The position numbers and the translations under genes were made by a program. This document shows positions 2,435 to 21,335 of a DNA stretch of 27,159 nucleotides, one piece after another. The stretch is from a virus. Lineage: Duplodnaviria > Caudoviricetes. A model generated the notes under the pieces. That model was not told where the DNA came from, searched no databases, and saw only the letters and a list, made by a program, of their open reading frames with translations. Position 1 is the stretch's first letter. Each line of letters begins with the position of its first letter. The stretch lies in the IMG/VR virus record IMGVR_UViG_3300037424_000800, positions 1 to 27,159 of that record. One strand, given 5' to 3'.

Positions 2435-2856
2435 AGCAGGTTTCCTTTCATTTTGCTGATTATCTCGTCCGCGACCTGGGCGGGAGTTTGCTTTGCTGTT
2501 TTTCCATTGAGCTGCACCAGCGCCCACCCGTTTGCATATAACCACCGCGCCTTGATCTCGTCGTATGCCCACATTTTAGCGGCGCCATGCCATCCCTTTG
2601 ACCCGTCCACCTCAACGGCGATCAGTTGCCCGTCCATTTGGAAAGCTACGTCGATATATTGTTCCATCCCCGGTTCGGTATGGATGGGGTGTTCGTAGGC
2701 GATCCATTCCGGGTTGAGTAGGGTAACGGCGAGGCGGGCTTTTGCCTCTGCTTTGGTTGGGCGCTGACGGCGTTCTTGTGCTGCGAAAACGGCGCGGCGC
2801 TTTCCCGCTGTCCTCGCTGTTTCGCTGGTAAACGTTCCAGATGATCTAGCCATCAT
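2431..2856 (-). CDS. DUF559/Vsr-like PD-(D/E)XK endonuclease
   Basis: PTKAE...YIDVAF...LIAVEVDG..WH...DEIKARWLYANGW pattern. Confidence 0.7.
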   Translation of the reverse strand: MMARSSGTFTSETARTAGKRRAVFAAQERRQRPTKAEAKARLAVTLLNPEWIAYEHPIHTEPGMEQYIDVAFQMDGQLIAVEVDGSKGWHGAAKMWAYDEIKARWLYANGWALVQLNGKTAKQTPAQVADEIISKMKGNLL

Positions 2857-6712: not shown

Positions 6713-6751
6713 ATAATAACCGATAATTCACTGCTTGTCAATAGGCAATTT
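6713..6751 (-). promoter_or_regulatory. shared-box sigma70 promoter P2
   Basis: AAATTGCCTA-TTGACA-17 bp-TATTAT. Confidence 0.9.
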
Positions 6752-6761
6752 TATAAACGGG

Positions 6762-6802
6762 CAAACAAAAACCGGGCGTGGGGGGGGCACGTCCGGTTTT
6801 TG
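6762..6802 (-). terminator. intrinsic terminator, possibly bidirectional
   Basis: CAAAAACCGGACGTG-C7 loop-CACGCCCGGTTTTTG on the minus strand, immediately upstream of P2. Confidence 0.8.
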
Positions 6803-6831
6803 CCTTCACACAATAAGGAGCGAAGTGAACC
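6762..6831 (-). ncRNA. candidate anti-SD small RNA 1 (~70 nt)
   Basis: Own promoter (6838-6866), no ORF, UUCAC/GUGAA stem with loop UUCGCUCCUUAUUGU, ends in the terminator. Confidence 0.55.
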
Positions 6832-6837
6832 GATCAA

Positions 6838-6866
6838 AGTATAGAACCAACGCTGTCAAAAGTCAA
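6838..6866 (-). promoter_or_regulatory. sigma70 promoter for candidate sRNA 1
   Basis: TTGACT-17 bp-TATACT; the -35 overlaps the stop codon of 6863..7663. Confidence 0.7.
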
Positions 6867-7663
6867 GGATGTTTATTTATGCACCCAACGCACAGCGGTT
6901 GAAATGCCAGTTGTCCACGCTTCATCATGCCTACCGCCTCCGGTGTACTCTGCCCCCACTTCCACCAGAAGCCGCGCTCGTTGACGCACTGCTCTAATCC
7001 ATCCAACCATGCACCCCAATGCGGAAACCAGAACGCAGCCTCTTCGCGCTCCTCTTTGTTCTGCATCGTGCCACACATACACTCGCCAGAACGGTGTAGC
7101 AAAGCTGAAACGGGGTTGACTTCCAATTTCTCGTCATGGATGAAGTCCATGCAGTCGCGCTTTGTCCATTCGTTGATGATGTTCACCCACACGTTAGGGC
7201 CATCCGCCTTGACGGGTTCCCTCATCGTCATCATGCGGTTCTGGCTTTCCTGCCTGCGCCCGCCGTTGATAAGCAAGATATTGCGTCCGCGCTTCCCCTG
7301 GCGTATCGTTGCCAGCCCCGCGCGCAACCGCTGGCGCTTCAAGATGTGGTAAGCATAGGTGTGCGCCCTCTCTCCTTTGCCAAAGAAACCCTTGCGCAAC
7401 ACGTAATCCTCATACGCGCTCCCCGCGGTTCGCTCGATGTACGGCAATCCTGTACTCTCAACGTATCGGCGCACGTAATCCAGCGTTTCGGGTATCCCCG
7501 TCCCGGTGTGAACGTGCATTACATAATCAACCTTCACGCCCAGGCGCAAGGCTACGTGTAACGCGGTTAGGCTGTCTGTGCCCCCGCTGAACATAGCAAC
7601 GGCGGCATAAGGCTTATACTCCATCCGCGCCTGCTTGATAATCTCTCGCGATTGCTCAAACAC
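6863..7663 (-). CDS. PAPS reductase-family (PP-loop) protein
   Basis: FSGGTDS PP-loop, GGRRQES..R, WTKRD, SGECMCG. Confidence 0.85.
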   Translation of the reverse strand: MFEQSREIIKQARMEYKPYAAVAMFSGGTDSLTALHVALRLGVKVDYVMHVHTGTGIPETLDYVRRYVESTGLPYIERTAGSAYEDYVLRKGFFGKGERAHTYAYHILKRQRLRAGLATIRQGKRGRNILLINGGRRQESQNRMMTMREPVKADGPNVWVNIINEWTKRDCMDFIHDEKLEVNPVSALLHRSGECMCGTMQNKEEREEAAFWFPHWGAWLDGLEQCVNERGFWWKWGQSTPEAVGMMKRGQLAFQPLCVGCINKHP

Positions 7664-8363
7664 GCGTTTTTTGTCCCAGGCGTTCTAATTCGTCTACCAG
7701 ATCACCGAGCAATTTTTCGACCTTCGGTAAGTCGAACGGTAGTAGCGCCAGGGTTTGCTGGACGCTATGGATCAGCCCGGTCAAATGGCTCACTACCAGG
7801 CGCAAGCGTTTCTCCGGGTCCTGTTCATCGGCAATATTGCGTAGCCCTTCCAGATGACGGTTTTCTTCCGAGAAGGCCAGGAGCTCGCCGTCAGCGGTGT
7901 TCACGTCGCCGAACTTTGCCTCCATCCAATCAACGGACGGGGCGATGCCTCCCCGGTTATGCGCCTCAACGAGGCATGCGCTCAACATCTCGCGCCAGCG
8001 CGCTGGGTTGCGCATGGCGGATCGCAGGTGATCAATCGACAACCCTGGAAAATCGTCCAGCCCTCCAACCCCGTTGCTGGCATAGAAATCAACTATCTGG
8101 ACGTATTCGCGCACGGTGCGAGTAGCCTTGCCGGTCAGCGATGCGAACTCTTTGTAAACGTCCATAACGCCGATTTCAACTACATTTCCTGTTTCCCTGC
8201 CCTCTTGCTCGGCTTGTTTTAGTTCGTCTATGGTCAGGGCGATCAACTGCCCGATTTCCCAGGCGGCGTCACTGGACACCTGTCCCAGGTAGATAGCGCG
8301 CTCCCGGCGCGCCTCCGGTATGAATTGGCTTACTGATGTTACGACTATCATCTCTGCAACCAT
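7656..8363 (-). CDS. hypothetical protein
   Basis: 235 aa ORF overlapping both neighbours. Confidence 0.75.
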   Translation of the reverse strand: MVAEMIVVTSVSQFIPEARRERAIYLGQVSSDAAWEIGQLIALTIDELKQAEQEGRETGNVVEIGVMDVYKEFASLTGKATRTVREYVQIVDFYASNGVGGLDDFPGLSIDHLRSAMRNPARWREMLSACLVEAHNRGGIAPSVDWMEAKFGDVNTADGELLAFSEENRHLEGLRNIADEQDPEKRLRLVVSHLTGLIHSVQQTLALLPFDLPKVEKLLGDLVDELERLGQKTRV

Positions 8364-8764
8364 TTTCTTATCCTCTCTTTTGTGATCTCGTGGTCCGCCG
8401 GTATCCCGAACGTGACCCAGGGTTTATGTGAACTGGCATTGTACTCAGGGACGCGCGCCGCCAGGGTGATCAAGTAAAGCGCCTCGTTAATAGTAGTTAC
8501 CACCCCGACGATCCCGGGGCAATTGGTCAAGAATTCTATCTCGCCGGGCTCGAAGCGGGTTAGTTTTTCTAGCGATTTAACCTCGATGGCTACGCAGCGC
8601 TGGCCCACCCACACCAGCCAATCTACCATCACCCCGCCGCGCTTAGAAACGTCCACGGCATAAATCGGTGGCATGTCAGGCAGCTCACGGGCTTGCTCGA
8701 CCGCCTCAGCGACGACATGGTGGTTTTTGTCTGGATGGGGGTTATACTTCGGGCGTCTGGTCAT
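8348..8764 (-). CDS. PD-(D/E)XK nuclease, VRR-NUC-like
   Basis: MVDWLV...VAIEVKS...PGEIEF; start placed at the ATGA overlap (8764). Confidence 0.6.
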   Translation of the reverse strand: MTRRPKYNPHPDKNHHVVAEAVEQARELPDMPPIYAVDVSKRGGVMVDWLVWVGQRCVAIEVKSLEKLTRFEPGEIEFLTNCPGIVGVVTTINEALYLITLAARVPEYNASSHKPWVTFGIPADHEITKERIRKWLQR

Positions 8765-9600
8765 GGGAAGCACATCTCGTCATCGTAAGATATGGGTTCA
8801 TCGTCGAAGCCGGTTGGAACTGGGATCGCCGGTTCTATGAGCGCCTCTTTTGTCAAAGCCCCCACGGTTTCGATGGGTGGACGCTCGGACAGCACGGCAC
8901 CTTCCAGGAAGCGCAAAGCCTGCTGTACGACGCCTCCGGGTTCCAGGTCATACGACTCTGGTAATGCTCCGTTAGATTGGATGGCATGGTGTGGAGTAAC
9001 ATTTGTGAACACGTTCTTGGTGGTGGTAACCACATAGCGTTCCTCGTCGTTCTCGCTCGATAGTACAACCTCGATCACCTTGCCACCGAAAAAGATGGCT
9101 TGCGGGCGTTCAGTTTTTGCGAGATTATAGAATGCACGAACGGAGAGATCACCTTGCCCGGATACCCACCGGTCAACAAGCTCCTTCATGGTTGGCGCTG
9201 GTCTTCCTTCGGCTATTTCCTGCTTGGTAAGGGCGGCGTCGATCTCGGCTCGGTTCAAAACCCAGCGCGCCTCAGTCTTGAATGACTCGCGCGGGCGCCA
9301 CCCCCCGTCATCGCCCGGAGTAGAAAACCAGCGGGATAGTGCCAGCCATTCAGGATCGCTCAGGTCTTTCGTTGAAATCCCGTCAGACTCAAAAGACGCA
9401 GAATCCTCCAGCAAAACCCACGCGATCACCAAATGACGACGGCGGTCTTGCTCGGTGACCGGGGTGTTCCCGTCGTTCATGGCCTTGTTGAACTCGCCTA
9501 TGATGCGTCCCTTTGCCCCAGGTGAAAAGGTCTTGTCAAACGGTTGGGCGCGGTAGTGCTGGCAACCTTTGCGCACGGTTTCAGGGGTCAAGGTTTTCAT
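8761..9600 (-). CDS. hypothetical protein
   Basis: 279 aa, coupled to neighbours, acidic C-terminus. Confidence 0.8.
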   Translation of the reverse strand: MKTLTPETVRKGCQHYRAQPFDKTFSPGAKGRIIGEFNKAMNDGNTPVTEQDRRRHLVIAWVLLEDSASFESDGISTKDLSDPEWLALSRWFSTPGDDGGWRPRESFKTEARWVLNRAEIDAALTKQEIAEGRPAPTMKELVDRWVSGQGDLSVRAFYNLAKTERPQAIFFGGKVIEVVLSSENDEERYVVTTTKNVFTNVTPHHAIQSNGALPESYDLEPGGVVQQALRFLEGAVLSERPPIETVGALTKEALIEPAIPVPTGFDDEPISYDDEMCFP

Positions 9601-9836
9601 ACTATTATCCCCTCTTTAAGCTTGAGTTTAGCATATTGATAGAGTTCTTCTGCTACCCGGAGGTTCCTTTCCATCGTTTCCCACTCGGCGGCTGTGTAGT
9701 CCTTCTTGCTTTCTCGTAGATCAAAGCAGTCCGGTGGCATTGGTTCATATCCCTTATCGACGGCTAAAAGAACACGGGCGAAGTAATCCCAAAGGTCGAT
9801 CAAAGGTAACTTGCGCTTACGGTTGAAGATGCTCAT
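9597..9836 (-). CDS. hypothetical protein
   Basis: 79 aa, coupled on both sides. Confidence 0.7.
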   Translation of the reverse strand: MSIFNRKRKLPLIDLWDYFARVLLAVDKGYEPMPPDCFDLRESKKDYTAAEWETMERNLRVAEELYQYAKLKLKEGIIV

Positions 9837-10696
9837 ATTGGCAACTCCATGTATGCCCTGATAAACTCAGCCGCCAGGGGAGCCACTATCGCGTTCCCGT
9901 AGGCGCGCAGTCGTCCCACTCTGGCGGTAGCCCCATAAGCCAGCGGGAAAAGGCCGGGTTGAGTTGGTCTGGATTTTCCGTCCCGGCAGGGGAGCCATTC
10001 AAGGTCAGACCATACACCGCCTGTTCGTTCAGTGGTCTGCTGTTGCGCTCCATCGTATCCTCGGACGCTCTCCCGTCCCTCCAGTCCCGCGCTGATGGTG
10101 TTCCCCAACCCGTGAGCTTCGTTGCTCCCGACAAGTTCAGCATTTTCTTTTCGTGATCCCCTTTGCTGTACTGGTAATCTCCTCTCGCTGCTTTCGGAGT
10201 GGGCCACGAAGTAAAGTCTTTGCCTGATGTGCGGCGCTTGCGCGCTCGCAGCGCATATATCGACCGCTGCGACGGTGTAACCCGCACCTTCCAGGTCACT
10301 GTAAACAAGATCGAGCCACGCAAGACCATCCTTTGACGCAACTTGTTCACCAAAGACGACTGCAGGCCGGCACTCTCTGATGAGCCTGAACCATTCAGGC
10401 CAGAGATGCCGAGGGTCAGCTGTACCGCCGCGCTTTCCTGCGGCTGAGAAGGGCTGGCATGGGCAACTTCCCGTCCATACTTCCCGTTCTTCGGGCCAGC
10501 CAGCGAGACGGAGTGCATAACTCCAGACCCCGATGCCTGCGAAGAAGTGAGCTTGTTTGTGTCCTGTGAGATCATGCGGTTGTACCTCTCTGATGTCGCG
10601 CTGGTCAACGTAGCCGGGTGCGATGTGCCCTGCGTCAATGAGGTTGCGTAGCCACTGCGCGGGGTAAGCTTCGATTTCGTTGTAGTAGTTGATCAT
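9833..10696 (-). CDS. DNA (cytosine-5)-methyltransferase, main (alpha-like) polypeptide
   Basis: FFAGIG (motif I), GSCPCQPFS (IV), GEQV (VI), [11 protein letters not shown] (VIII), [10 protein letters not shown] (X). Confidence 0.9.
9886..10638 (-). CDS. overlapping alternative-frame C5-MTase beta-like polypeptide (start uncertain)
   Basis: 250-codon open frame nested in the MTase, with WPTP/WGTP repeats and [16 protein letters not shown] (motif IX-like). Confidence 0.65.
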
Positions 10697-10938
10697 ATCG
10701 GTAACCTCCCCTGGCGCTCATGTACGCGGATGGCATCACCGATCTCAACGACCGTATCGGCATACAGCTTCGCTTTACGAATGCGCCAGTATTTCGGCTC
10801 GGCGTCAGCTACGAACTCTCGGTTCTCGTAGGGAACCCGCTTGATCCTGGCGATGTCAGCGCGGAACTCTTCGTCCTTGCCGGTCACGGTGCATAGGGCT
10901 GTGTACCCGTCGCCCTCAATGATCTTTACGTCTATCAT
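10693..10938 (-). CDS. small hypothetical protein, possible HARP-like domain
   Basis: 81 aa, RBS AAGGAG; weak resemblance to the second SNF2 N-terminal repeat. Confidence 0.7.
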   Translation of the reverse strand: MIDVKIIEGDGYTALCTVTGKDEEFRADIARIKRVPYENREFVADAEPKYWRIRKAKLYADTVVEIGDAIRVHERQGRLPI

Positions 10939-11135
10939 TCTGGTTCGCTCCTTTTGGTTTTAGTGTGGTAAACGCCGCATTCCACGCAGCGGGAGTATAC
11001 GGTTAAAGCGTCCACGGCGGCCAGGGTGTGGTCAGTCTCTTTTCCACAGCCCATGCAGAACTGCTTCTCGGTCTTGATTATGCACGCGTAGGCGGCGCGC
11101 ACCATCTCAACGAACTGAATAACCTCGGCGCTCAT
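10935..11135 (-). CDS. small Zn-ribbon protein
   Basis: CMGC...CVEC; start placed at the ATGA overlap with the dnaB stop. Confidence 0.65.
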   Translation of the reverse strand: MSAEVIQFVEMVRAAYACIIKTEKQFCMGCGKETDHTLAAVDALTVYSRCVECGVYHTKTKRSEPE

Positions 11136-12496
11136 GCTTCCCACCACTCCTCAGTGACGCGCCCGTTATCCCTGGTCGCAATGTGTCCCACTGTGACAGT
11201 GTCAAACCGGGGGATACTATCATGCACGTAGAAATCGATGCTGGCTAGCCCGCGACCGCCTTCTCTGAATTTTACAAATGCCAGCCGCGCCAGGCTTGGG
11301 GCTTCGGGGATCTTCACTAGAAACGCTATCAGGTCCCCGTCGTGTACCTGCTGCCCGCTGCCACGCATGAGGCTCATGCCTGCCTTCCCAGTGTCCATGC
11401 CCTCTTTGACCACGCTGTTCACCGTGATCATGGCGACCTTAAATTCCTTCGCCACCGTGCGAACCTCCCTGGACAGGATCGCCGATTTCTCGGTTTCGTC
11501 CTTCGCCTTGACTCCCTCCATTAGCAAAAGATAATCCAGCACCACCCATTCGATGTCATACTCAGCCTTTAACCGGGCAACCTTCGCTCGAAACAAGCCC
11601 GGCGTCAAGCGCGCCGTATCGTCCAACCAGACGGGCAGACTGTCGCCGAGCGAAACCCCGTTTACGAGCTTGTGCCAGTCATCACCCTCTAACCTTCCAG
11701 TCTTTAGTCGCCGGGTTTCTATGTTTGACAGAACGGATAGGTCACGGAAACCCATCTGCATCTTCTGCATCTCCGGTGAGAAGATCGCGCCGGCATGGTT
11801 ACCCTGTTCCGGCATAGCCATTTGTAACCCTATCTGATGGGCGAGTTTGCTTTTCCCTATCCCGGGTTGACCAGCGAGGTAAAACGACTCGCCTGGCTGC
11901 AGACCACCGGTATAGTTGTCCAGGTCGATGAACCCGGTCGGGATGCCCCAAACGTCAGTCGGGTTCTTTGACCGTTCCACGACCTCGTCATAGGTGCTGC
12001 TCAATACATCGCCCAACCTGGACGTGCTACCGTCATTGTTAGAGAACGACCCGGATATTTCACGGGTGATGCGCATGCTTGATTCTGTGATCGGCTCAGA
12101 TGCATAGGCAGCTTTTGCCAGCTCATTCGCCTGGCGCAGGATGTCGCGGCGCTGTGCCTTATCGCGCACAATGGCGGCATAATGCTCGATCCCCTGGGAG
12201 TTCGGTACGGCGCTGACCAGCGACGTGATGAATGCTGGTCCGCCGATCTCGGAAAGTTGCCCTGCGCGCTCTAGCTCGTCTATCAGGGTCACGTAGTCCG
12301 GTATGACCTTGCGCGTCCGCAGGGCGGAAAGGGCTTGCCACACCCACCGGTAGCGGTGAACGTAGAACTCCTCCGGGGTCAAGTCGATCAGATCGATCCC
12401 GGCAGGGTCAATGATCGCTGCGCCTAAAACTGCTTCTTCGGCGTCTTTGCTAAAAAGTATCCTGGTTTCGCCTTCGCCTTCGTCTTCCTGGCTCAT
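11132..12496 (-). CDS. dnaB: DnaB-like replicative helicase
   Basis: AEEAVLGA N-domain, GIPTGFIDLD, GQPGIGKS Walker A, VVLDYL, RGSGQQVHDGD. Confidence 0.92.
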   Translation of the reverse strand: MSQEDEGEGETRILFSKDAEEAVLGAAIIDPAGIDLIDLTPEEFYVHRYRWVWQALSALRTRKVIPDYVTLIDELERAGQLSEIGGPAFITSLVSAVPNSQGIEHYAAIVRDKAQRRDILRQANELAKAAYASEPITESSMRITREISGSFSNNDGSTSRLGDVLSSTYDEVVERSKNPTDVWGIPTGFIDLDNYTGGLQPGESFYLAGQPGIGKSKLAHQIGLQMAMPEQGNHAGAIFSPEMQKMQMGFRDLSVLSNIETRRLKTGRLEGDDWHKLVNGVSLGDSLPVWLDDTARLTPGLFRAKVARLKAEYDIEWVVLDYLLLMEGVKAKDETEKSAILSREVRTVAKEFKVAMITVNSVVKEGMDTGKAGMSLMRGSGQQVHDGDLIAFLVKIPEAPSLARLAFVKFREGGRGLASIDFYVHDSIPRFDTVTVGHIATRDNGRVTEEWWEA

Positions 12497-12524
12497 GGGT
12501 CATCCTTTCATTTATCTGGTAGTG

Positions 12525-13418
12525 CTATTTTACTATGGTTTCTGCGTGAAACACGGGCGGTAGTGCGGCTACGACTGCCTCGGGTGAGCGCACCCTGTCA
12601 TTCTCGCTGAACCCACCCCGCTTGAACACGTCTAGCATCCCCTGAACGTTAGACGGGTTATACCCGCGCCCTAACCATTCATGCACCACCGCGCGCCACT
12701 GGTCAACCTTGTGGCGAACTTCGCCAACCGCAGCGACGACCTCCGGACGCCACGCGATGGGCATGTGATAGCGGGTTTCTGACCGGAACGCTTTGACCGC
12801 CGGGTGGCTCAGCAGCGGGTCGCGCTTTTTCCCTTTAGTGTTGAGCGGGACAATAACCTTGACCCCTTGCCCTTGATCGCCCTCCTTCCCTAACGCATCA
12901 AAGAAATCCTGTTCGGTTTGTTCAGTAGAGGGGGCGGGATGTTCATCCCGCGAACTCATGTTTTTATTTATATTCATGTATGATGATTTGGGTGACATTT
13001 TTGCACGTTTCTTGCTTAAAATGTCACCCCCTCCCTCGCTTTCTTTGCTTAAAATGTCACCCCCACCCATGGGGGGTGACATTTTGTCACCCCCCATAAT
13101 AACGGGCGATGATGTATTTACATCAATTGTTTTGGGTTGGAATTTTGGTTTCACTGGGATCTGGTTCACGTTGATTTTATAAACGTTTGTTCCCCACTGG
13201 CTAAAACCCTGATGTACCATGATTTGTTTCTGAACCAGGGAGGCAGTGATACGTTGCACCTGGCGTTCTTCATAGTCTGTTTTCCATGCCACGTAACCAA
13301 TGGACGGGTAAACTCCCTCACCGTCATCATTGGCGTGGTCGGCATACGCAAGTAGGACGTACTTCTCTGGTCTTGGCAGCGCCGATTTCCATACCCTTGA
13401 CATCAATTCAACGCTCAT
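12525..13418 (-). CDS. phage replication initiator (N-terminal winged HTH)
   Basis: MSVELMSRVW...KYVLLAYADHANDDG..YPSI...ERQVQR pattern; lies upstream of dnaB; contains iterons; AAGGAG 8 nt before ATG 13418. Confidence 0.85.
   Translation of the reverse strand: MSVELMSRVWKSALPRPEKYVLLAYADHANDDGEGVYPSIGYVAWKTDYEERQVQRITASLVQKQIMVHQGFSQWGTNVYKINVNQIPVKPKFQPKTIDVNTSSPVIMGGDKMSPPMGGGDILSKESEGGGDILSKKRAKMSPKSSYMNINKNMSSRDEHPAPSTEQTEQDFFDALGKEGDQGQGVKVIVPLNTKGKKRDPLLSHPAVKAFRSETRYHMPIAWRPEVVAAVGEVRHKVDQWRAVVHEWLGRGYNPSNVQGMLDVFKRGGFSENDRVRSPEAVVAALPPVFHAETIVK
12961..13097. repeat. putative replication origin (iterons plus AT-rich tract)
   Basis: Five TGTCACCC-core copies in both orientations, including a 20-bp direct repeat TTGCTTAAAATGTCACCCCC (13012-13031, 13045-13064) and a palindrome (13069-13097); AT-rich tract at 12961-12990. 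Confidence 0.85.
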
Positions 13419-13441
13419 TTGGCTCACTCCTTATCGTTAAA

Positions 13442-13552
13442 AAATCCAGACCTTATTCCTGGCGGCAACGGCGCTCACGGCAGCAACGGCGGTTCTGCGC
13501 TTGGCGGGCGCGTACCGGTGCGCCGTGGCAACCAGGGGTAAAATCTGGATTT
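13442..13552 (-). ncRNA. structured 5' leader of the initiator gene (candidate)
   Basis: Long imperfect stem AAATCCAGATTTTA/TAAGGTCTGGATTT continuing CCTGG/CCAGG and ACGGCGC/GCGCCGT, ending just before the RBS. Confidence 0.55.
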
Positions 13553-13620
13553 CGCCGTTGACTTTTATTCCGCCCGTAGCGCCGGAGTTGCCAGCCCCGG
13601 CGGGCTTTGTTGTTACCGGT

Positions 13621-13629
13621 ATTGTACCA
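13621..13629 (-). promoter_or_regulatory. extended -10 promoter for the replication operon
   Basis: TGgTACAAT about 200 nt upstream of the initiator start. Confidence 0.5.
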
Positions 13630-13637
13630 CGGGTTCA

Positions 13638-14063
13638 TCACCGCGCGGCGCGGATCGTAACGAACGGTGCGCCGGTCTTTTTGAGGGTCAGCAGCTTGTC
13701 CTTCAATCCGGCTGGCAGGGCGGCGGCGAATCCCTCAAGCTGCGCTGTGTCCCAGGTGGTCTTACCGCCGTTAAATACGGCGATCATCCATTCACCTTTG
13801 ACGGTAGATCCCTGTTCAAGGACGGCGTTCTTCACGCTGGTTTCCATAGCTGCAAGGTGGGCGCTGGCGGCGTCGATTTTGGGGTCAAACTCTGCCCGGA
13901 TACCGTCCATAACGGCGCGCACATCCTGGGGGATCGCCTGGGTCAAAAGACTTTCCCGGTTGGTGATCAGGTTGTTTAGCTGATCACGCAGGATGGCGAT
14001 GTCATCCAGCATGGCAGCTGGACTTGGTTTGGTCTTTGGTAAGTCTTCGTTGTGGTAGATCAT
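13638..14063 (-). CDS. hypothetical protein with helical N-half (Gam/Gp157-like layout, tentative)
   Basis: 141 aa, AAAGGAG RBS. Confidence 0.7.
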   Translation of the reverse strand: MIYHNEDLPKTKPSPAAMLDDIAILRDQLNNLITNRESLLTQAIPQDVRAVMDGIRAEFDPKIDAASAHLAAMETSVKNAVLEQGSTVKGEWMIAVFNGGKTTWDTAQLEGFAAALPAGLKDKLLTLKKTGAPFVTIRAAR

Positions 14064-14075
14064 TCGGTTCTCCTT

Positions 14076-14336
14076 TCAGTCATAATCTTGCGTGGTTGGA
14101 CCGCTGAGCGGCATAGGGGCGCTTACGGTTTCATAGTCAATATCATCACGCCAGTAAAACGCGTCTGGCGCATTATCCGGGGCGACCACGATGTTTTCGA
14201 CTCTACTGCTGGTGCGTTCTCGTAGGTGGTTCATGGCTCCCGCGATCTCCCTGGCATAAGCCTCGCTGGTTGCCTGAGCGATCAGGCAATAGTTGGCAGT
14301 GTCTCGATCATAAGCGTATATTTTGGTCTTGTTCAT
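14076..14336 (-). CDS. hypothetical protein
   Basis: 86 aa, GAGGA RBS, ATGA-coupled. Confidence 0.7.
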   Translation of the reverse strand: MNKTKIYAYDRDTANYCLIAQATSEAYAREIAGAMNHLRERTSSRVENIVVAPDNAPDAFYWRDDIDYETVSAPMPLSGPTTQDYD

Positions 14337-14800
14337 GGGTGTTTCCTCACTAGTTTTACGTAGACTGGGTAACCCAGGCGGTCAACGCTGAACCGGACGC
14401 TGTATGGGTCGGCGGCTCGTAGTGCCTTGATTACCCCAAAGACTGTCTGGAAGGGCAGGTCGGTGCCGAAAGCCAGGTTGGTGAAGCTGGCGTACATCTC
14501 ATATCCACTCAGCTTGCAGATGCGGGTGAGCTCAGTTTTGACTTTTTCAACGGTTGCCGGGTCGGTCACCGGTTCAATACCGATCTCGCTATAAGATGCT
14601 TTCGGTAGCCCTGCGCCGGGCAAGCCTAGTTTTATTGCTTCGGCGACGCCGAGGGGGTTGGTCCCTGCGATGCTAAACTGGACGCCGAATGTCTCGCGCA
14701 TAATCGCCGCTCGTTCCCGGTTACGCTGGTGCACTTCCTGAACCGAACCGCGCCGCAACTCGTTTTTCATCTTGGGGGCTTTCATAATCTGGTTGGTCAT
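14333..14800 (-). CDS. hypothetical protein
   Basis: Start moved to ATG 14800 (GAAAGGAATAGACCAATG), downstream of P3. Confidence 0.75.
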   Translation of the reverse strand: MTNQIMKAPKMKNELRRGSVQEVHQRNRERAAIMRETFGVQFSIAGTNPLGVAEAIKLGLPGAGLPKASYSEIGIEPVTDPATVEKVKTELTRICKLSGYEMYASFTNLAFGTDLPFQTVFGVIKALRAADPYSVRFSVDRLGYPVYVKLVRKHP

Positions 14801-14822
14801 TGGTCTATTCCTTTCTACTCTA

Positions 14823-14861
14823 ATAATAATTGATTTCTCCTTGTTTGTCAATAGGCAATTT
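14823..14861 (-). promoter_or_regulatory. shared-box sigma70 promoter P3
   Basis: AAATTGCCTA-TTGACA-17 bp-TATTAT. Confidence 0.9.
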
Positions 14862-15321
14862 ATTTCCTTCCACTACAAACCGGACAGTCGTTATCCAGGG
14901 CATTCGCCAGGGTGCCAAGTTTAGTAAGAACCCCGTCCACGATCATGCAGACCCCGCACAGGTTTTCCAGGTCTTCCTGGGGCACGTCGAACCGGGTTTC
15001 CACTTGCGCTCCGATCCGTACTTCGATGATCCTGTGCCCGGTCTTTGGGTCATCCCAATAGTGGACCCGCTTGGCGGCTCTCAATACCTGAGCGTTTTTG
15101 CGCAGCTCATCAATGCGCTCAATTATCCGTCCGTACCGGATGGTTACATTGGGCGACATCTTGGTCGTGTCGCCTTCATGATAACTTAGCAGGGCATTAC
15201 GCTCGTTTGTCAGGGCGATCAGTTCTCCGGCCAGCGACGCCAGTTGCAGCATATCATAGGCGAACGGGTACTTGCGCCTGAACCGTTCCCAGGTGTCATT
15301 ATCGATATAAGATAGGTTCAT
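14860..15321 (-). CDS. hypothetical protein
   Basis: 153 aa, GGAGG RBS; stop overlaps the P3 box. Confidence 0.75.
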   Translation of the reverse strand: MNLSYIDNDTWERFRRKYPFAYDMLQLASLAGELIALTNERNALLSYHEGDTTKMSPNVTIRYGRIIERIDELRKNAQVLRAAKRVHYWDDPKTGHRIIEVRIGAQVETRFDVPQEDLENLCGVCMIVDGVLTKLGTLANALDNDCPVCSGRK

Positions 15322-15574
15322 GGTTGGTTTCCTCCAGGATCACATCAACCGGTTTGTCCGGGTCAAGGTAACGGGTTTCGACGGTCAGGTTGTCAAATAG
15401 GTGTTCGCCGACGGTTTCGCCGGGTATGATGCGTCCAAACCGGACAGACCCGCCGGTGCGCGAGTAACCCATGCATTCCCATAGTTCGCCCTTTCCCAGG
15501 CGGACTGGCAGGTTATAGTATTCCGGGTATGCCGCCACATTGTGGGCGGTGATGGTTATCTTTCTCATGGTCAT
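15299..15574 (-). CDS. hypothetical protein
   Basis: 91 aa, operon packing. Confidence 0.7.
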   Translation of the reverse strand: MTMRKITITAHNVAAYPEYYNLPVRLGKGELWECMGYSRTGGSVRFGRIIPGETVGEHLFDNLTVETRYLDPDKPVDVILEETNHEPILYR

Positions 15575-15577
15575 TTC

Positions 15578-16018
15578 CTATCCCAGGTAACCCAGGGCTC
15601 GACCCCAACGGATCGTGCCGTAGTGCTGGTTGAGGGGAACGGTCTTGATGACCTTGTCGGTGAGGGCGTCCAGTTCCTTCGCCATGGCGCGGCGGGCATC
15701 GAAGTCATGTTCGCCGTCGGGCTGTACCGGCAGGTCCCATTCAGCGGTGACCGGCATGCAGTGATGCTGCCCGATTGGACTGATGGCGAAAGCGACCATG
15801 CGCCAAAGGTAAGCCGCTTTGCCGCTTACCGGTTCGGGGGCGATCATTTCGATTTCGCCGTTGTAGCTGCGGTACGGGTGATCCCGGGCGACCCTCGGCT
15901 TGCTGGCTCGCAGGCAACCGGTTTTCGGGTTGATGATCCGCTTGACCAGTTCCAACTCGTCGTCGGTCAGGTCGATCAGGGCTTCCAGGTCGATCTTGGG
16001 CATTTCACTGCAGTACAT
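15578..16018 (-). CDS. hypothetical protein
   Basis: 146 aa, GAAAGGAACTAGACCATG. Confidence 0.8.
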   Translation of the reverse strand: MYCSEMPKIDLEALIDLTDDELELVKRIINPKTGCLRASKPRVARDHPYRSYNGEIEMIAPEPVSGKAAYLWRMVAFAISPIGQHHCMPVTAEWDLPVQPDGEHDFDARRAMAKELDALTDKVIKTVPLNQHYGTIRWGRALGYLG

Positions 16019-16072
16019 GGTCTAGTTCCTTTCTGCCGGGGTTATTGCCAGCCCCGGCGCTAGTGGTGGGTT

Positions 16073-16483
16073 TTACCGGTTGTTCTCTGCCAGGCTAACG
16101 GCGGCATTCATAATTTTGGCGAATAAGCTGGCGGTTTCAGGAGTCTGGCTGCCCAGGGCTGCCCAGTTGATCTCGGGTTCAGGTTCTTTGCCGAACTTCT
16201 CATAGTAGTACACGGTGATCCAGGCGTCGAAGTATTTGCCTTCGTTTTTGTAGTCGCGCATTATTCCGAACTCGACGCTGCCTTCGCCGCTTCCATCGTT
16301 TCGCAGGTTAGGGCGAACTGAGAAACCAAGCGCCTCTTCCAGGGGCTTGACCTCTTCGGTCATCAGTTTGTCTACCAGGGCTAAGTACTCGTCCGTGGTG
16401 CGGCTGGTGGCAAAGATTATGTTGATCTCGTTTTTGATTTTGAGCAGGGCGTTCAGGGTGGGGTCATTCGTTTGGAGTTTCAT
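16073..16483 (-). CDS. hypothetical protein
   Basis: 136 aa, GAAAGGAAACGACCATG, downstream of P4. Confidence 0.8.
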   Translation of the reverse strand: MKLQTNDPTLNALLKIKNEINIIFATSRTTDEYLALVDKLMTEEVKPLEEALGFSVRPNLRNDGSGEGSVEFGIMRDYKNEGKYFDAWITVYYYEKFGKEPEPEINWAALGSQTPETASLFAKIMNAAVSLAENNR

Positions 16484-16528
16484 GGTCGTTTCCTTTCGTT
16501 GTCTAAGTCAGTTTTTTCTTACGTCTTA

Positions 16529-16567
16529 ATAGTAAACGATAACCGCCTATTTGTCAATAGGCAATTT
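16529..16567 (-). promoter_or_regulatory. shared-box sigma70 promoter P4
   Basis: AAATTGCCTA-TTGACA-17 bp-TACTAT. Confidence 0.9.
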
Positions 16568-16983
16568 TAGAAAAGCATGAGCTGTTCAGGTTGAACGCCG
16601 AACGCGCCGGTGTAGGCTGCGTGGATTTCCTCGTCAGTAGGTTCTGCCCATTCCCATTCAGGATGCTGCGTCCACCACCACTCGAAGAACTCGGACGCCT
16701 TGATCTGGATGTCGAATTCCAGGGCGGGGTCGTTGATGACGGTGCGCTCGATCCTGTCTACCAGAGCGGTTGAAAACAGGCTGGCGCAGCCGGGCAGGAC
16801 GGCTTTGGCGATCTCGTAGGCTCGGTACAACCATGGCAGTTGCACGTCGAATGCCCACCATAGGTCACGCGTGCGCCAGAACTCGTCCTTGATCGCGTTG
16901 AGCGCCAGGTTTTGTTTAGGCTTGAGCGGGCCGCGCTGCTTGATCACGTAAAGCAGCGCGGCTTCGGCAGTATGGTCGGTCAT
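16567..16983 (-). CDS. hypothetical protein ending in QLMLF
   Basis: Start placed at the ATGA overlap (16983); stop overlaps the P4 box. Confidence 0.75.
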   Translation of the reverse strand: MTDHTAEAALLYVIKQRGPLKPKQNLALNAIKDEFWRTRDLWWAFDVQLPWLYRAYEIAKAVLPGCASLFSTALVDRIERTVINDPALEFDIQIKASEFFEWWWTQHPEWEWAEPTDEEIHAAYTGAFGVQPEQLMLF

Positions 16984-17390
16984 GCCAGGATGATCCAATA
17001 GACGGCTTTGCGGGGGAAGCGATTTATCCTGCACAGCGGGAAGTCATCGTCCACGTATGGGCGGTAGTCATCCGGGTCGATCCCGTGGTGCCAGTCGCAG
17101 AACGGGCACGGTTCCCGGTTTTCCAGCCACATATTGAACCGGTCAACGTTGTAGTCCAATTGTTCGCCACAGCGAGGGCAGCAGCCCCGCTCGGTGCAGG
17201 TGCAGGGTTCCGGATCGCTTGGCAGGGTCACCCAGGTGCTTCCGTAGTCAACCCGGTCGCCGCCGGTTTCGATCTCGCCGCGGGCGCCGCAATCCGGGCA
17301 GTGGTTGGGCCAGCGTGCAACCCAGACGTCGTACTGTTCTTGTTGGAGGGCGGCGCGTTGCTGCGCCGCCTCGATGGGATTGTAGGTCAT
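16980..17390 (-). CDS. Cys-rich Zn-finger protein
   Basis: CPDC, CTC, CPRC, CPFC motifs. Confidence 0.7.
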   Translation of the reverse strand: MTYNPIEAAQQRAALQQEQYDVWVARWPNHCPDCGARGEIETGGDRVDYGSTWVTLPSDPEPCTCTERGCCPRCGEQLDYNVDRFNMWLENREPCPFCDWHHGIDPDDYRPYVDDDFPLCRINRFPRKAVYWIILA

Positions 17391-17611
17391 GGTTGCACTC
17401 GACGTTTCAGGCTGGCGCTGAACAGCCGGTTCATGCGGATCAATCGGCGGGCCGCGCGGGGATCGTTCTTTCCGTTGAACATGGCTTGGTATTCATGCAG
17501 CTCGCCAGCTTTGTTAGTTATGCTCGCGCTGCGGAACACAGCGCAGGTGACCCACGTCCGGTTAGGCAGGGTTCCCTGGTTCAAATGGACGGCTTCGATT
17601 CTAAGGTTCAT
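17387..17611 (-). CDS. hypothetical protein
   Basis: 74 aa, GAAAGGAAACAAGACCATG. Confidence 0.75.
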   Translation of the reverse strand: MNLRIEAVHLNQGTLPNRTWVTCAVFRSASITNKAGELHEYQAMFNGKNDPRAARRLIRMNRLFSASLKRRVQP

Positions 17612-17674
17612 GGTCTTGTTTCCTTTCGTAGGGGTCTGGTGGGGCGGCTTGCGCCGCCCCGGTTTCAGGGGTTC

Positions 17675-18145
17675 TTATCTGGTCTGCCACCAGATTACGT
17701 CAGCCAGGTCGATCTCGTTGTGCAGGCTGACGATCTTGTTTTCGCCGCGCAGTACCCGGTCGCAGATCGCCTCGATCAGCTCAACCACGTCGCTCAGGTG
17801 GTATGAGCAAAAGTGCTTTCCAGCGATACTCCACTCGTAGCGCCCGGAACCGGTTTCTTTGATCTCGACTAAGTTGTGGTGGTTACCGACCACTATGAAC
17901 TGGGCAGTTCTGCCGCCGATGCTCTCGAAGTTGTGGACGCCTTCGGCGTTGATGCCGTGGTCAATGTTTTTGGTCATGATCCAGTCCATCAAGAAGCGGA
18001 CAAAGTCATTGCGGTAGATCGCCCATAGTTCTTCCTGGGGGATCGGGCGGCTATGGCTGCTCACGTGGATATGGTCGCCGTCGATGGCGATTTCCATCTT
18101 CTCGGTGGCGGTTTCGATCTTGGTGGTTTTGATTTCTGCGGTCAT
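17675..18145 (-). CDS. hypothetical protein
   Basis: 156 aa, GAAAGGATCAAGACCATG, downstream of P5. Confidence 0.8.
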   Translation of the reverse strand: MTAEIKTTKIETATEKMEIAIDGDHIHVSSHSRPIPQEELWAIYRNDFVRFLMDWIMTKNIDHGINAEGVHNFESIGGRTAQFIVVGNHHNLVEIKETGSGRYEWSIAGKHFCSYHLSDVVELIEAICDRVLRGENKIVSLHNEIDLADVIWWQTR

Positions 18146-18193
18146 GGTCTTGATCCTTTCGCTGTCTGGTGGTCGGTTTGTTCTTGCGTTTTA

Positions 18194-18232
18194 ATAATAA
18201 ACGATAACCGCCTATTTGTCAATAGGCAATTT
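18194..18232 (-). promoter_or_regulatory. shared-box sigma70 promoter P5
   Basis: AAATTGCCTA-TTGACA-17 bp-TATTAT. Confidence 0.9.
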
Positions 18233-18246
18233 TAGAGTTAAGCCAG

Positions 18247-18271
18247 ACCACCCGCGGATCGGGCGGGTGGT
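18247..18271 (-). terminator. hairpin upstream of P5 (possible terminator, no U-tract)
   Basis: ACCACCCGC-7 nt-GCGGGTGGT. Confidence 0.4.
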
Positions 18272-18303
18272 AGCTGCTAATGAAGCTCCTGGTAGCGGCG
18301 CTG

Positions 18304-18768
18304 CTAGAGTTGTTCGAGATTCTCGCAGTGACCGTAGAACCAGCGCCATAATTTGATGCGGCGTTCCCGGTCAGAGCGTTCGACGTATCCTTCGATGCTC
18401 TCACCCTTGCGCCGGGGCAATTCCTTTGTGTCAAGCCGGTCGGGGTGGTACTGTTCCAGGTAGCAGCCGGTCACGTTCGGAATTCGCAACGTGATGCACC
18501 CGGAGTCGTCCTGCTCGATGCAGGTTTCCCCGTTTTCGTCGCGCTTGGTATGACCGCTGATGGCGACCACGTAAATGTGGGGTTGACCGGCGATGATCTT
18601 GGCTTTGATGATCGCTTTGTGGACGTACTGGGCGTAGTCCAGGTGGCTGGGCTGGATTTCGACGCCGAGATCCTTGCTCAGGTATCCGGCGATGTTTTCC
18701 AGTTCCTTGTCGCGCCCGGTGATGGTATGGGCGTCGATGAAATAGGTATTGCTGGTCTTGGTTGTCAT
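18304..18768 (-). CDS. hypothetical protein
   Basis: 154 aa, TGAAAGGAAACTAGACCATG, downstream of P6. Confidence 0.8.
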   Translation of the reverse strand: MTTKTSNTYFIDAHTITGRDKELENIAGYLSKDLGVEIQPSHLDYAQYVHKAIIKAKIIAGQPHIYVVAISGHTKRDENGETCIEQDDSGCITLRIPNVTGCYLEQYHPDRLDTKELPRRKGESIEGYVERSDRERRIKLWRWFYGHCENLEQL

Positions 18769-18819
18769 GGTCTAGTTTCCTTTCATTTAGTCAGTGGTTA
18801 GGCTTATTCTTACACTCCA

Positions 18820-18858
18820 ATAATAACCGATATTCCCGTGTTTGTCAACAGGCAATTT
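18820..18858 (-). promoter_or_regulatory. shared-box sigma70 promoter P6
   Basis: AAATTGCCTG-TTGACA-17 bp-TATTAT. Confidence 0.9.
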
Positions 18859-18874
18859 TAGATTGGAATGCCAC

Positions 18875-18911
18875 AAAAAAGCGCACCGCCCGGAGACCAG
18901 CCGGGCGGTGC
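18875..18911 (-). terminator. intrinsic terminator
   Basis: GCACCGCCCGG-7 nt-CCGGGCGGTGC-GC-TTTTTT. Confidence 0.85.
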
Positions 18912-18947
18912 TAAATGAAAGGAACGCGGGGGGTGTATGACCCCGCG
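18875..18947 (-). ncRNA. candidate anti-SD small RNA 2 (~72 nt)
   Basis: Hairpin CGCGGGG/CCCCGCG, unpaired linker UUCCUUUCAUUUA, then terminator; extended -10 directly upstream. Confidence 0.6.
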
Positions 18948-18952
18948 ACCGT

Positions 18953-18976
18953 ATTATAGCATAGTTTCCACTATGC
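18953..18976 (-). promoter_or_regulatory. extended -10 promoter with adjacent palindrome
   Basis: TGcTATAAT (18953-18961) overlapping the DUF3560 stop; inverted repeat GCATAGT-GGAA-ACTATGC at 18959-18976. Confidence 0.6.
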
Positions 18977-19739
18977 GTTTTGCCCAGTAGTGAGCGTCGC
19001 TGGTAAGGAACCGCTGCCATGCGCCTTCGCTCGGCGCCCATCTAAAACCGTGCTCTTTCAAAGCGTCACGTACCGCCTTATCCGGTTTGCCGGGGAAGAA
19101 TATCTGCAGCCGGTTCTCGTCAGCGTTCTTGACGATGCGCACCCCGTTGACCTCGGTTTCCCTATTCTGCCGGGTGGCTGCCCGTTCCAGCGTCTTTAGG
19201 CGCTCTTTCAGGCGGGTGATGTTGCCCCGGTTGTTCGCCAGGGCGTAATCTGGAAATCCCAGGCGACCAACGAAATCGGGTTCATAGAGCTTGCCAACAT
19301 GGGTTTCGGTGAAGCCCATCGTTAGCAGCGCGGCCCGGTTGGATGGAGTATCGCCGTTACGTATGATCTTGTTGGTGGCTTTCATCTTCTCCTGGTCAGC
19401 TTCCAGCTTGGCAATCCGCGCCTTGATCTTCTCGATGGCGTCCGGGTCATCGCTGGAAATCGCCGCGTTGCTTTCAGCGGCTGCGGCGCGGCTGGCGGCG
19501 TTGGACGCTTGCTCAGCGAGCTCCGCTGATTTGCGAAAACCGGACTCGATCTTGGCGCGGTAGCGCCGGTCACGCTTCTCGCTGTGATGACCAACCAGGA
19601 TCGGTTGCCCAAACGGGATCACGTCTGCCATATCGTGCGCACGCTTGCGCATAGTGACTGACTGATCAAAGAGGTTATCGGCACGGTTCTTGAGTCGTTC
19701 TATGCGTTGCTGTCTTTTTTGTTCGTAATCACTTTTCAT
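18954..19739 (-). CDS. DUF3560 domain protein
   Basis: IPFGQPILVGHHSEKRDRRYR, ISSDDPDAIEK, RLQIFFPGKPD...GFRWAPS; GGAGG RBS before ATG 19739. Confidence 0.85.
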   Translation of the reverse strand: MKSDYEQKRQQRIERLKNRADNLFDQSVTMRKRAHDMADVIPFGQPILVGHHSEKRDRRYRAKIESGFRKSAELAEQASNAASRAAAAESNAAISSDDPDAIEKIKARIAKLEADQEKMKATNKIIRNGDTPSNRAALLTMGFTETHVGKLYEPDFVGRLGFPDYALANNRGNITRLKERLKTLERAATRQNRETEVNGVRIVKNADENRLQIFFPGKPDKAVRDALKEHGFRWAPSEGAWQRFLTSDAHYWAKRIVETML

Positions 19740-19950: not shown

Positions 19951-20831
19951 TGGTCATGCTCCCTTTCGTGTAATGGGCTATATGCCCAGGTTAGCTCGTA
20001 CCGGTACGCCTCACTGTCCCGGTCATCGTTGGGCGGCAGCGGGTCAACGGTGAAGACCCAGGTGTGCGGGACGGCGTTGACGGGATCGGATCGGTCGGTG
20101 TGGACGCAGAGTGTTCCGAACGGCATGGTTGCCCACATGAGCGAGAATGGGCGGTTGTAGCTGGCGTAGACGTGGCGGGCTCGGCGCACCTGGGTAGCTC
20201 GATCTTTGTCTTCCTCGCTGATCGCCTTCATCAACTCATGGTGCCACGCGCCGGCTGCATTATGGCGCAGTTTCGATAACCGGTCATACCCGCACAGTTC
20301 GGCGAAGCGATAAAACCGGTCGGAGTCGTCGCACCATTTAACGGGGCGGGTGGGGTACGCCGTGCTTAGGTCAACGATGAATGGCTTATAGGATTTCGGG
20401 TCTAACGCCAGGGTGATCAAGTCATTGATTTCCCACCCGGCGCGGTTTACGCCGCGCACTGCCTGTTCCAGCGCCAGTAAAACGTCCCGGTTGATCCGGC
20501 GGTGTTCGATCTCCTGCCCGTACACAGGCGCCAGCTTGCGTACCAGCCAGGGGCGACCATCCGGGGTCATGACCTCGGTCCAGTTCTTAGGGAAGAAGGG
20601 CTTATCAGCGAACTCCCGCAAGAGGTCGATTTCCTTAGTAGGATACAGAGCGTCGGCGTTGGGGTATGGGCGGGCTATTAGGGGTTTCCAGACGAATCCG
20701 TCGGGGGTCAGGAAAGCGCCGCCGGTGTGGACGCCATCGGGCAACCCGTCTGCGCGTGTCCCGGTCAGCTTAGTGCAGCCGTCGAATGGCGGTTGCCCGT
20801 ACATCTCGATGGGGAAGGATAGCTTAATCAT
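19947..20831 (-). CDS. hypothetical protein, possibly kinase-like fold
   Basis: 294 aa; VWK, KE, INDL and IVDLS occur in protein-kinase-like order (tentative). Confidence 0.6.
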   Translation of the reverse strand: MIKLSFPIEMYGQPPFDGCTKLTGTRADGLPDGVHTGGAFLTPDGFVWKPLIARPYPNADALYPTKEIDLLREFADKPFFPKNWTEVMTPDGRPWLVRKLAPVYGQEIEHRRINRDVLLALEQAVRGVNRAGWEINDLITLALDPKSYKPFIVDLSTAYPTRPVKWCDDSDRFYRFAELCGYDRLSKLRHNAAGAWHHELMKAISEEDKDRATQVRRARHVYASYNRPFSLMWATMPFGTLCVHTDRSDPVNAVPHTWVFTVDPLPPNDDRDSEAYRYELTWAYSPLHEREHDQ

Positions 20832-20832
20832 C

Positions 20833-21015
20833 TTATGACCACCCTTTTGGAACTATTCCGAAGTCGATAGTTATTCCAAAACCGAGAACATAAATATCAA
20901 GTCTTCGAGCAACAAAAGCGATGCTAATGATCGTGATGCCGAACAAATATAGCTCTATCCCGAAATTGTTATGATTAGTGTTCTTCCAGTCTGATCTAAA
21001 CTTAATGCGTTTCAT
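20833..21015 (-). CDS. small hydrophobic protein
   Basis: 60 aa, GAAAGGAAACGACCATG. Confidence 0.7.
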   Translation of the reverse strand: MKRIKFRSDWKNTNHNNFGIELYLFGITIISIAFVARRLDIYVLGFGITIDFGIVPKGWS

Positions 21016-21037
21016 GGTCGTTTCCTTTCGTTTGTTG

Positions 21038-21187: not shown

Positions 21188-21335
21188 TGGTAAGGTTCTA
21201 AATCCGACCCGGCTCTACCGCCGTCTTCCTTGCTTATCCCCCTGGGGGGAGCCTCCACGATTATCCTTCGGCACGCCGTGTTGTGATCGCTTTGGTTTCG
21301 GACCTACCCCCATGATAAGGGCGGGGATCGGTTTG

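What the first reader, a model, noticed from the sequence alone, without database searches (positions are those of the whole stretch)
6713..18961. Both sRNA candidates share one architecture and divide targets by RBS class
Seen: the two units share no obvious sequence but have the same layout. The promoter overlaps the upstream gene's stop codon, then come ~70 nt with an exposed anti-SD, a terminator, and a shared-box promoter 10-16 bp later (P2, P6). One reads AAGGAG-type RBSs (starts 13418 and 10938, core only at 1490, 14063, 23367); the other reads AAAGGA(A)-type RBSs. The adjacent initiator and helicase genes are each matched by a different RNA. Inference: a two-channel RBS code for phage translational control, which might also hit host mRNAs. 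I know of no described equivalent but could not search for one.
Basis: inference. Interest (0 to 1): 0.85.

Follow-up and report, generated by a model that had tools for sequence, protein, structure and literature searches.

The report
Twin phage anti-RBS small RNAs
An uncultured phage carries two tiny promoter-to-terminator units whose sequences mirror its own ribosome-binding sites; they likely make small RNAs that would dampen its early and DNA-replication genes, one broadly and one narrowly, rather than reading a two-class code.

Summary
The layout is real. Two minus-strand units (A ~6831-6763, B ~18946-18875) each have a promoter over the upstream stop codon, a ~70-nt folded RNA with an anti-Shine-Dalgarno tract, a terminator and then a box promoter. 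They are the only such units in the window.

B's linker is the exact complement of three RBSs (14 nt, next gene; 12 nt, dnaB and 2434). It also fits the GAAAGGAA motif at 11 of 41 phage starts, against 1 of 259 starts in a host-class genome. A fits four starts best (initiator 13418, 19950, 10938, 11135), chosen by flanks rather than by class.

The 'two-class code' is overstated. AAGGAG and AAAGGA are overlapping registers of one host anti-SD, and 3 of 5 AAGGAG sites also contain AAAGGA. The 'shared box' is a common phage promoter.

No close relative and no transcript data were found. An unrelated phage (L427) has a B-like unit matching five of its own RBSs. Yfr1, csRNAs and P1 c4 are precedents, and this scan has noted anti-SD phage RNAs in at least 17 other genomes. 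Verdict: likely trans-acting self-silencing sRNAs; new variant of a known kind.

The parts
6838..6866 (-). Unit A promoter (-35 contains the TGA stop of the upstream PAPS-reductase-domain gene 6863-7663)
6763..6831 (-). Predicted RNA A, about 69 nt; ends inferred from promoter and terminator
6811..6824 (-). Anti-SD tract of A, mostly in a 10-nt hairpin loop
6763..6801 (.). Bidirectional intrinsic terminator of A; also ends the replication-side operon
   Evidence: sequence
6713..6748 (-). Box promoter after A, driving gene 6686
18953..18961 (-). Unit B extended -10 promoter containing the TAA stop of the DUF3560 gene
18875..18946 (-). Predicted RNA B, about 72 nt: 5' hairpin, 14-nt single-stranded linker, terminator
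18911..18924 (-). Anti-SD linker of B
18875..18911 (-). Intrinsic terminator of B (11-bp stem, U6)
18820..18855 (-). Box promoter after B, driving gene 18768
18777..18790 (-). RBS of gene 18768 (orphan, 154 aa): perfect 14-nt complement of B; also pairs in cis in a read-through transcript
12503..12514 (-). RBS of the DnaB-like helicase (start 12496): 12-nt complement of B
2442..2453 (-). RBS of gene 2434: 12-nt complement of B
13423..13436 (-). RBS of the O-like replication initiator (start 13418): best predicted target of A, 14 bp with G-U pairs
10944..10953 (-). RBS of gene 10938: perfect 10-nt complement of A
11136..11157 (-). Start region of gene 11135: predicted target of A
19951..19972 (-). 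Start region of gene 19950: predicted target of A

Best explanation
Two sigma70-type promoter / anti-Shine-Dalgarno / terminator units lie at the 3' ends of two early operons, and they likely make ~70-nt RNAs that would pair in trans with this phage's own ribosome-binding sites and block translation initiation. RNA B would act as a group silencer. Its unpaired linker matches the phage-typical GAAAGGA(A) site that heads all 8 box-promoter cassettes, with longer pairing to gene 18768, gene 2434 and dnaB. RNA A would act narrowly on the initiator and genes 19950, 10938 and 11135 through flanking bases. Together they would cover four consecutive genes of the replication module (initiator, dnaB, 11135, 10938). 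The likeliest role is delayed negative feedback on early and replication gene expression, or shut-down of a superinfecting relative. SHOWN: motifs, complementarity, computed folds and enrichment. INFERRED: transcription, RNA ends, pairing in vivo, repression, timing and host.
For: - Anatomy and folding.
- With the 8-nt SD core fixed and flanks random, 14/12/12-nt perfect matches arose in 25 of 5000 trials (5' UTR composition) and 5 of 5000 (window composition). A 14-nt match to the adjacent gene arose in 56 and 11 of 20000.
- A's four best energies were reached by 5 of 600 flank shuffles.
- With accessibility, A gives -15.6 to -10.0 kcal/mol on four starts and -7.6 or weaker on the other 42. 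B gives -10 to -13 on 10 starts, all GAAAGGA-type.
- GAAAGGAA occurs at 11 of 41 phage starts and 1 of 259 host-class starts (Fisher p 9e-10). B follows the phage's variant, where the 16S tail would call for G after GAAAGGA.
- Four consecutive genes among 7 random picks: p 0.011, a post hoc test.
- Independent analogue: L427/L471 has a -10 over the upstream stop, a 5' hairpin, an anti-SD linker, a terminator and a next promoter. Its tract is the exact 10-nt complement of all 5 same-strand GAAAGGA RBSs in that record.
Against: - No transcript evidence was obtained.
- No close relative exists in the collections searched, so no covariation test was possible.
- Energy-based shuffles are weaker than the perfect-match counts: best single target 54 of 600 for each RNA, B top-3 sum 40 of 600.
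- The phage's RBSs resemble each other: 4 of the 14 GAAAGGA starts have a twin sharing 14 nt or more. An inverted RBS copy could therefore match by descent.
- A's preference for phage starts is marginal: 4 of 41 against 7 of 259 at -19.5 (p 0.049), none at -17 (4 of 41 against 34 of 259).
- B's promoter has no -35; L427's -35 is also weak.
- L427 was 1 of 53 hits of a pattern designed to find that layout.
- In other phages 9 of 14 strong promoter/anti-SD/terminator hits (several near-identical) are cis-antisense over a gene of 65 aa or more.
Confidence: 0.55

Rival explanations
1. Cis insulator. B's tract matters only inside read-through transcripts from the upstream operon, where it folds onto the 18768 RBS and keeps that gene under its own promoter. 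A is then only a terminator with a chance tract.
For: In the 207-nt read-through RNA, 12 of the 14 base pairs form with probability 0.82 or more. The longest match is to the gene 134 nt downstream.
Against: It does not need B's own promoter or 5' hairpin. It leaves the 12-nt matches at dnaB and 2434 unexplained. A does not match its downstream neighbour 6686 (-2.2). It is compatible with trans action as a second role.
Confidence: 0.15
2. Relics. The units are ordinary operon terminators carrying leftovers of cis-antisense modules (terminator - RBS - start codon - antisense promoter) whose plus-strand gene was lost. Matches to other RBSs reflect the phage's uniform RBS pool.
For: That cis layout is common in other phages (9 of 14 strong hits). 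Both units read on the plus strand as an RBS, a start codon and a reverse -10 a few codons in. Four of 14 GAAAGGA RBSs have a twin of 14 nt or more.
Against: There is no plus-strand gene or promoter, and the space is filled by the 3' ends of intact minus-strand genes. Promoter, hairpins and terminator are intact in both units. The free-standing L427 unit has no opposite-strand start codon.
Confidence: 0.17
3. Literal two-channel code: RBS class alone assigns each gene to RNA A or RNA B, and host mRNAs are hit as well.
For: Target sets hardly overlap. B reads a recurring motif. A reaches -17 or better on 34 of 259 host-class starts.
Against: Three of 5 AAGGAG sites also carry AAAGGA. A is weak on 1490, 14063 and 23367 (-6.8 to -7.0) and strong on two non-AAGGAG starts. 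Both motifs pair with the same 16S tail. B's motif is nearly absent from the host-class sample.
Confidence: 0.08
4. The tracts are RBSs of translated plus-strand micro-ORFs (25 codons at A; 8 or 17 codons at B).
For: Start codons follow both tracts. At B a GTG lies 9 nt after AGGA, within the phage's usual 7-9 nt spacing (and the sequence).
Against: No strong plus-strand promoter lies near either unit (only 11530, 14317 and 25397). A's bidirectional terminator would stop plus-strand RNA about 10 nt before the tract. A's spacer (5 nt) is at the low extreme, 1 of 25. B's start codons lie in a stable hairpin.
Confidence: 0.05

Closest known systems
Yfr1 of cyanobacteria (RF01116; PMC2796815, passages read)
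   Same: Unpaired C/U-rich stretch between two stem-loops that sequesters target RBSs in trans; B aligns to the model end to end.
   Different: 17.9 bits against a cut-off of 38; lacks the ultraconserved 11-mer; host-encoded with host targets.
csRNAs of streptococci (PMC3091779, passages read)
   Same: [quoted passage not shown] B's 5' loop also holds a CAU upstream of its anti-SD.
   Different: CiaR-dependent sibling RNAs of similar sequence; no Rfam hit here. A and B are unrelated in sequence and phage-encoded.
c4 RNA of phages P1/P7 and Sar RNA of P22 (review PMC12197685, passages read)
   Same: Phage small RNAs that pair near the RBS of a phage gene and block translation. c4 lies upstream of its target on the same strand, as B does (recalled, not from a call).
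   Different: One target (antirepressor), tied to immunity and lysogeny. c4 is processed by RNase P (recalled). No C4 family hit. The predicted targets here are many early and replication genes.
Rhizobiales-2 RNA (RF01723) and ar14 (RF02344)
   Same: C-rich loops and GC-rich hairpins. B plus the upstream GGAA hairpin scores 35.8 bits on Rhizobiales-2 over the full model.
   Different: Below cut-off (40; ar14 19.7 against 58.8), E 0.67 for the whole window. The alignment spans B's own -10, and the likely host is a different phylum.
Start-Associated Sequences of Cluster K mycobacteriophages (PMC3203893, passages read)
   Same: A phage-specific RBS-like repeat before many genes; the authors left open whether an RNA or protein binds it.
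   Different: No cognate RNA is named in the passages read; here a candidate RNA with the complementary tract is in the same genome.

Membership tests
Trans-acting anti-SD sRNA (Yfr1/csRNA-like) | Own promoter and intrinsic terminator around a short non-coding unit | tested here: met
   (sequence prediction only)
Trans-acting anti-SD sRNA (Yfr1/csRNA-like) | Unpaired tract complementary to translation-initiation regions elsewhere, beyond chance | tested here: met
   B: 5-25 of 5000 by perfect match, but 40 of 600 by energy; A: 5 of 600
Trans-acting anti-SD sRNA (Yfr1/csRNA-like) | Transcript detected | not tested
   No sequencing runs were obtained for this stretch
Trans-acting anti-SD sRNA (Yfr1/csRNA-like) | Repression rescued by compensatory mutation, or covariation in relatives | tested here: inconclusive
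Yfr1 (RF01116) | Score above gathering cut-off; conserved 11-mer | tested here: not met
   17.9 against 38 bits
Rhizobiales-2 (RF01723) | Score above gathering cut-off | tested here: not met
   35.8 against 40 bits
C4 antisense RNA | Match to the Rfam C4 model | tested here: not met
   No C4 hit up to E 5 or E 10 locally
C4 antisense RNA | Target is an antirepressor operon | tested here: inconclusive
   No antirepressor family among 41 proteins in Pfam or 25 in PHROGs; gene 18768 is an orphan
csRNA | CiaR-dependent promoter in Streptococcus | not tested
   Terminase relatives point to Chloroflexota hosts; CiaR box not searched
Cis-antisense RNA over a gene's own RBS (Sar-like layout) | A gene on the opposite strand starting at the tract | tested here: not met
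   Only 8-25-codon frames and no plus-strand promoter

The most novel reading that the evidence does not exclude
The phage has evolved a private RBS variant for its early cassettes so that one RNA (B) can switch them off together without touching host translation. A second RNA (A), made from the 3' end of the replication operon, separately throttles the initiator and its neighbours. This would be a two-RNA, self-addressed translational timer, possibly widespread in phages.
Probability: 0.25. Interest if true: 0.8.

Novelty: new variant of a known kind. Interest (0 to 1): 0.5.

Why it matters
Early-gene shut-off in phages is mostly explained by proteins. An RNA that reads a phage-specific RBS motif would be a compact, host-sparing off-switch, and would offer one testable explanation for RBS-like repeats such as the mycobacteriophage Start-Associated Sequences. 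The leaders and RNAs are short and sigma70-like, so the idea can be tested with reporters in a laboratory strain without the phage or its host.

Tried and rejected
SEARCHES FOR RELATIVES
- Gene 18768: one weak viral locus and only itself among proteins.
- Helicase: no viral locus; cultured phages at most 33%. Initiator homologues at most 50% over part of the length.
- Terminase relatives at most 59%.
- The extended box pattern found 0 hits in viral and in metagenome contigs.
- DUF3560 homologues: 17 of 19 loci were read downstream of the stop; none showed a B-like unit.
- The unit finder found no anti-SD unit in 149 other loci (1.34 Mb), nor in 7 whole terminase-related contigs. Those 7 also lack the box and the GAAAGGA RBS, so the test is uninformative.
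- Blastn of A, B and the 21010-21340 region against cultured phages gave nothing meaningful. The 21010-21340 region against 401 host-class genomes gave 8 short weak matches.
- The B-type pattern hit 6 of 401 host-class genomes, with 3 control hits and no trans target seen.
- Roseobacter phages CRP-118 and CRP-403, related to L427 by one gene, showed no unit in the 4.8 kb fetched from each.

IDEAS REJECTED
- The box as a system-specific motif.
- Rfam membership.
- Pairing of A or B with the structured leaders, or with each other: only raw duplex energies were computed, without controls, and nothing was concluded.

LITERATURE
Eight searches listed no tested phage RNA that silences a group of its own genes through a shared RBS motif. 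Most subscription papers are outside that library and no supplements were read.

Expression could not be examined.
Full report
CONTEXT. The window is a whole 27,159-base virus record. It holds a minus-strand early and replication arm: SNF2 helicase, PAPS-reductase domain, C5 methylase, DnaB, O-like initiator and DUF3560. Plus-strand methylase and terminase genes follow. Terminase relatives in genome contigs are most often in Chloroflexota bins, many of them Anaerolineae, among 44 loci. The host class is therefore an inference. Eight box promoters head small gene cassettes. The first gene after each has GAAAGGA in its RBS: 8 of 8, against 14 of 41 minus-strand starts overall (starts curated by me).

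OBSERVATION. Unit A has a 10-of-12 promoter whose -35 contains the upstream TGA. Unit B has a perfect extended -10 containing the upstream TAA and no -35. The predicted RNAs fold better than all 200 shuffles. B is a hairpin, a 14-nt unpaired linker and a terminator. A carries its tract in a 10-nt loop before a bidirectional terminator. A finder requiring promoter, anti-SD core and terminator returns only these two in the window and none in 149 other loci (an earlier, stricter version missed B). The box is not a system marker: about 180 viral stretches hold the 16-mer. Stop-codon overlap also occurs at the box promoter near 1851 and at a third promoter at 21317.

TARGETS OF B. The linker is the exact complement of 14 nt at the RBS of the next gene (18768) and of 12 nt at dnaB and at 2434. 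With the SD core fixed and flanks random, this 14/12/12 pattern arose in 5 to 25 of 5000 trials. By energy the margin is smaller: 40 of 600 for the top-3 sum. With accessibility, B gives -10 to -13 kcal/mol on ten GAAAGGA starts and so behaves as a group reader. That script used fixed sub-windows and scored 12 of the 14 pairs at 18768; the full duplex is -16.8 with 6.7 opening cost.

TARGETS OF A. It pairs best with the initiator (-15.6), 19950 (-13.5), 10938 (-12.4) and 11135 (-10.0), and no better than -7.6 with the other 42 starts. Five of 600 flank shuffles reach its top-4 sum, but 54 of 600 reach its best single value. Initiator, dnaB, 11135 and 10938 are consecutive genes; the post hoc probabilities are 0.011 and 0.04. 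Against this reading, the phage's RBSs are alike: two of 1035 pairs share 14 nt or more, involving 4 of the 14 GAAAGGA starts.

THE CODE CLAIM. Ten of 12 16S ends from the likely host class continue CACCTCCTTTCT. AAGGAG and AAAGGA are thus overlapping registers of one Shine-Dalgarno. Three of five AAGGAG starts also hold AAAGGA, and A is weak on 1490, 14063 and 23367. The partition is real in the model, but it is one broad reader and one narrow, flank-dependent RNA.

HOST TARGETS. GAAAGGAA occurs at 1 start there, against 11 of 41 in the phage. B reaches -14 on 2 of 259 against 5 of 41. A reaches -19.5 on 7 of 259 against 4 of 41, and -17 on 34 of 259 against 4 of 41. B looks self-directed; A is undecided.

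MICRO-ORF AND CIS ALTERNATIVES. Plus-strand frames of 25 codons (A) and 8 or 17 codons (B) exist. There is no strong plus-strand promoter nearby, and A's terminator would stop plus-strand RNA before its tract. A read-through transcript from B folds the linker onto the 18768 RBS with near certainty, so a cis role is plausible alongside a trans one.

ELSEWHERE. No close relative was found (see Tried and rejected). I inspected 14 with a terminator-like hairpin. Nine, several of them near-identical, are cis-antisense over the RBS of a gene of 65 aa or more; in one more (L195) the unit overlaps the start of a long opposite-strand frame. None of the other four showed a match longer than 8 nt in the DNA held. 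A second scan, for tract, U-tract and downstream complementary RBS, gave 53 loci, mostly divergent gene pairs or chance. One, L427 from an unrelated phage, repeats B's layout: -10 over the upstream stop, 5' hairpin, unpaired linker, terminator, next promoter. Its linker is the exact 10-nt complement of all five same-strand GAAAGGA RBSs in the 5.6-kb record, including three bases that depart from the canonical SD. This is one selected case with a weak -35, not a covariation test.

KNOWN SYSTEMS. No Rfam family reaches its cut-off; Rhizobiales-2 comes nearest (35.8 of 40), then Yfr1 by architecture. I read passages, not whole texts, of PMC2796815 (Yfr1 blocks RBSs through an unpaired stretch between two stem-loops), PMC3091779 (csRNAs) and PMC12197685 (c4 and Sar). 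I also read passages of PMC3203893, PMC4603805, PMC10914365 and PMC9163698; the last three added nothing on targets. Other papers were seen only as search listings, and no supplements were read. Details of c4 processing and position are recalled. Earlier AI notes of this scan list 17 findings of anti-SD phage RNAs in other genomes, some reporting covariation with the phage's own RBSs (unchecked). None concerns this genome or sequence.

VERDICT. The anatomy is confirmed, and B in particular is likely a real self-targeting antisense RNA. The division of labour is broad versus narrow, not a two-class code. Without transcripts or relatives the mechanism remains a prediction. New variant of a known kind; interest 0.5.

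Noticed in passing
window 21016-21340, minus strand: A third promoter overlapping a stop codon (-10 at 21317, over the stop of gene 21524) opens a ~290-nt gene-free, multi-hairpin leader of gene 21015 (z -2.5). No Rfam hit and no homologue found. Candidate structured ncRNA or cis-regulator.
   Followed up: partly
window 13435-13555, minus strand: A long hairpin (33-nt arms) ending in six U directly before the initiator RBS; attenuator-like control of the replication genes.
   Followed up: partly
window 18960-18977: Perfect 7-bp inverted repeat with a GGAA loop abutting unit B's -10; an operator, or a third hairpin of a processed longer RNA B.
   Followed up: no
window 14293-14322, plus strand: A 10-of-12 promoter inside the first codons of gene 14336, pointing across its start and RBS; possible cis-antisense RNA without a clear terminator.
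   Followed up: no
window 9886-10638, minus strand: A 250-codon frame overlapping the C5-methylase gene in another frame. The methylase match in L382 also switches frame midway; possible programmed frameshift or overlapping gene.
   Followed up: no
L427:1465-1545 (L471:3007-3087): B-like promoter / hairpin / anti-SD / terminator unit in an unrelated phage, complementary to five of its own early RBSs.
   Followed up: partly
L157, L154, L205, L237 and similar loci: Recurrent cis-antisense units: a promoter inside a gene's first codons, RNA across its RBS, terminator just upstream.
   Followed up: partly
L348, -10 at 2954 on the minus strand: In a Chloroflexi contig, a short antisense unit covers the RBS of a short frame in the leader of an initiator-like gene (named by resemblance, untested), recalling plasmid copy-number control.
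   Followed up: no
window 18241-18275: Strong hairpin without a U tract just before the box promoter at 18222.
   Followed up: no
window 21647-22933 and 23790-25022: Two N6/N4 DNA methylase genes with near-duplicate N-terminal halves (87% over 300 nt) and divergent C-terminal parts.
   Followed up: no
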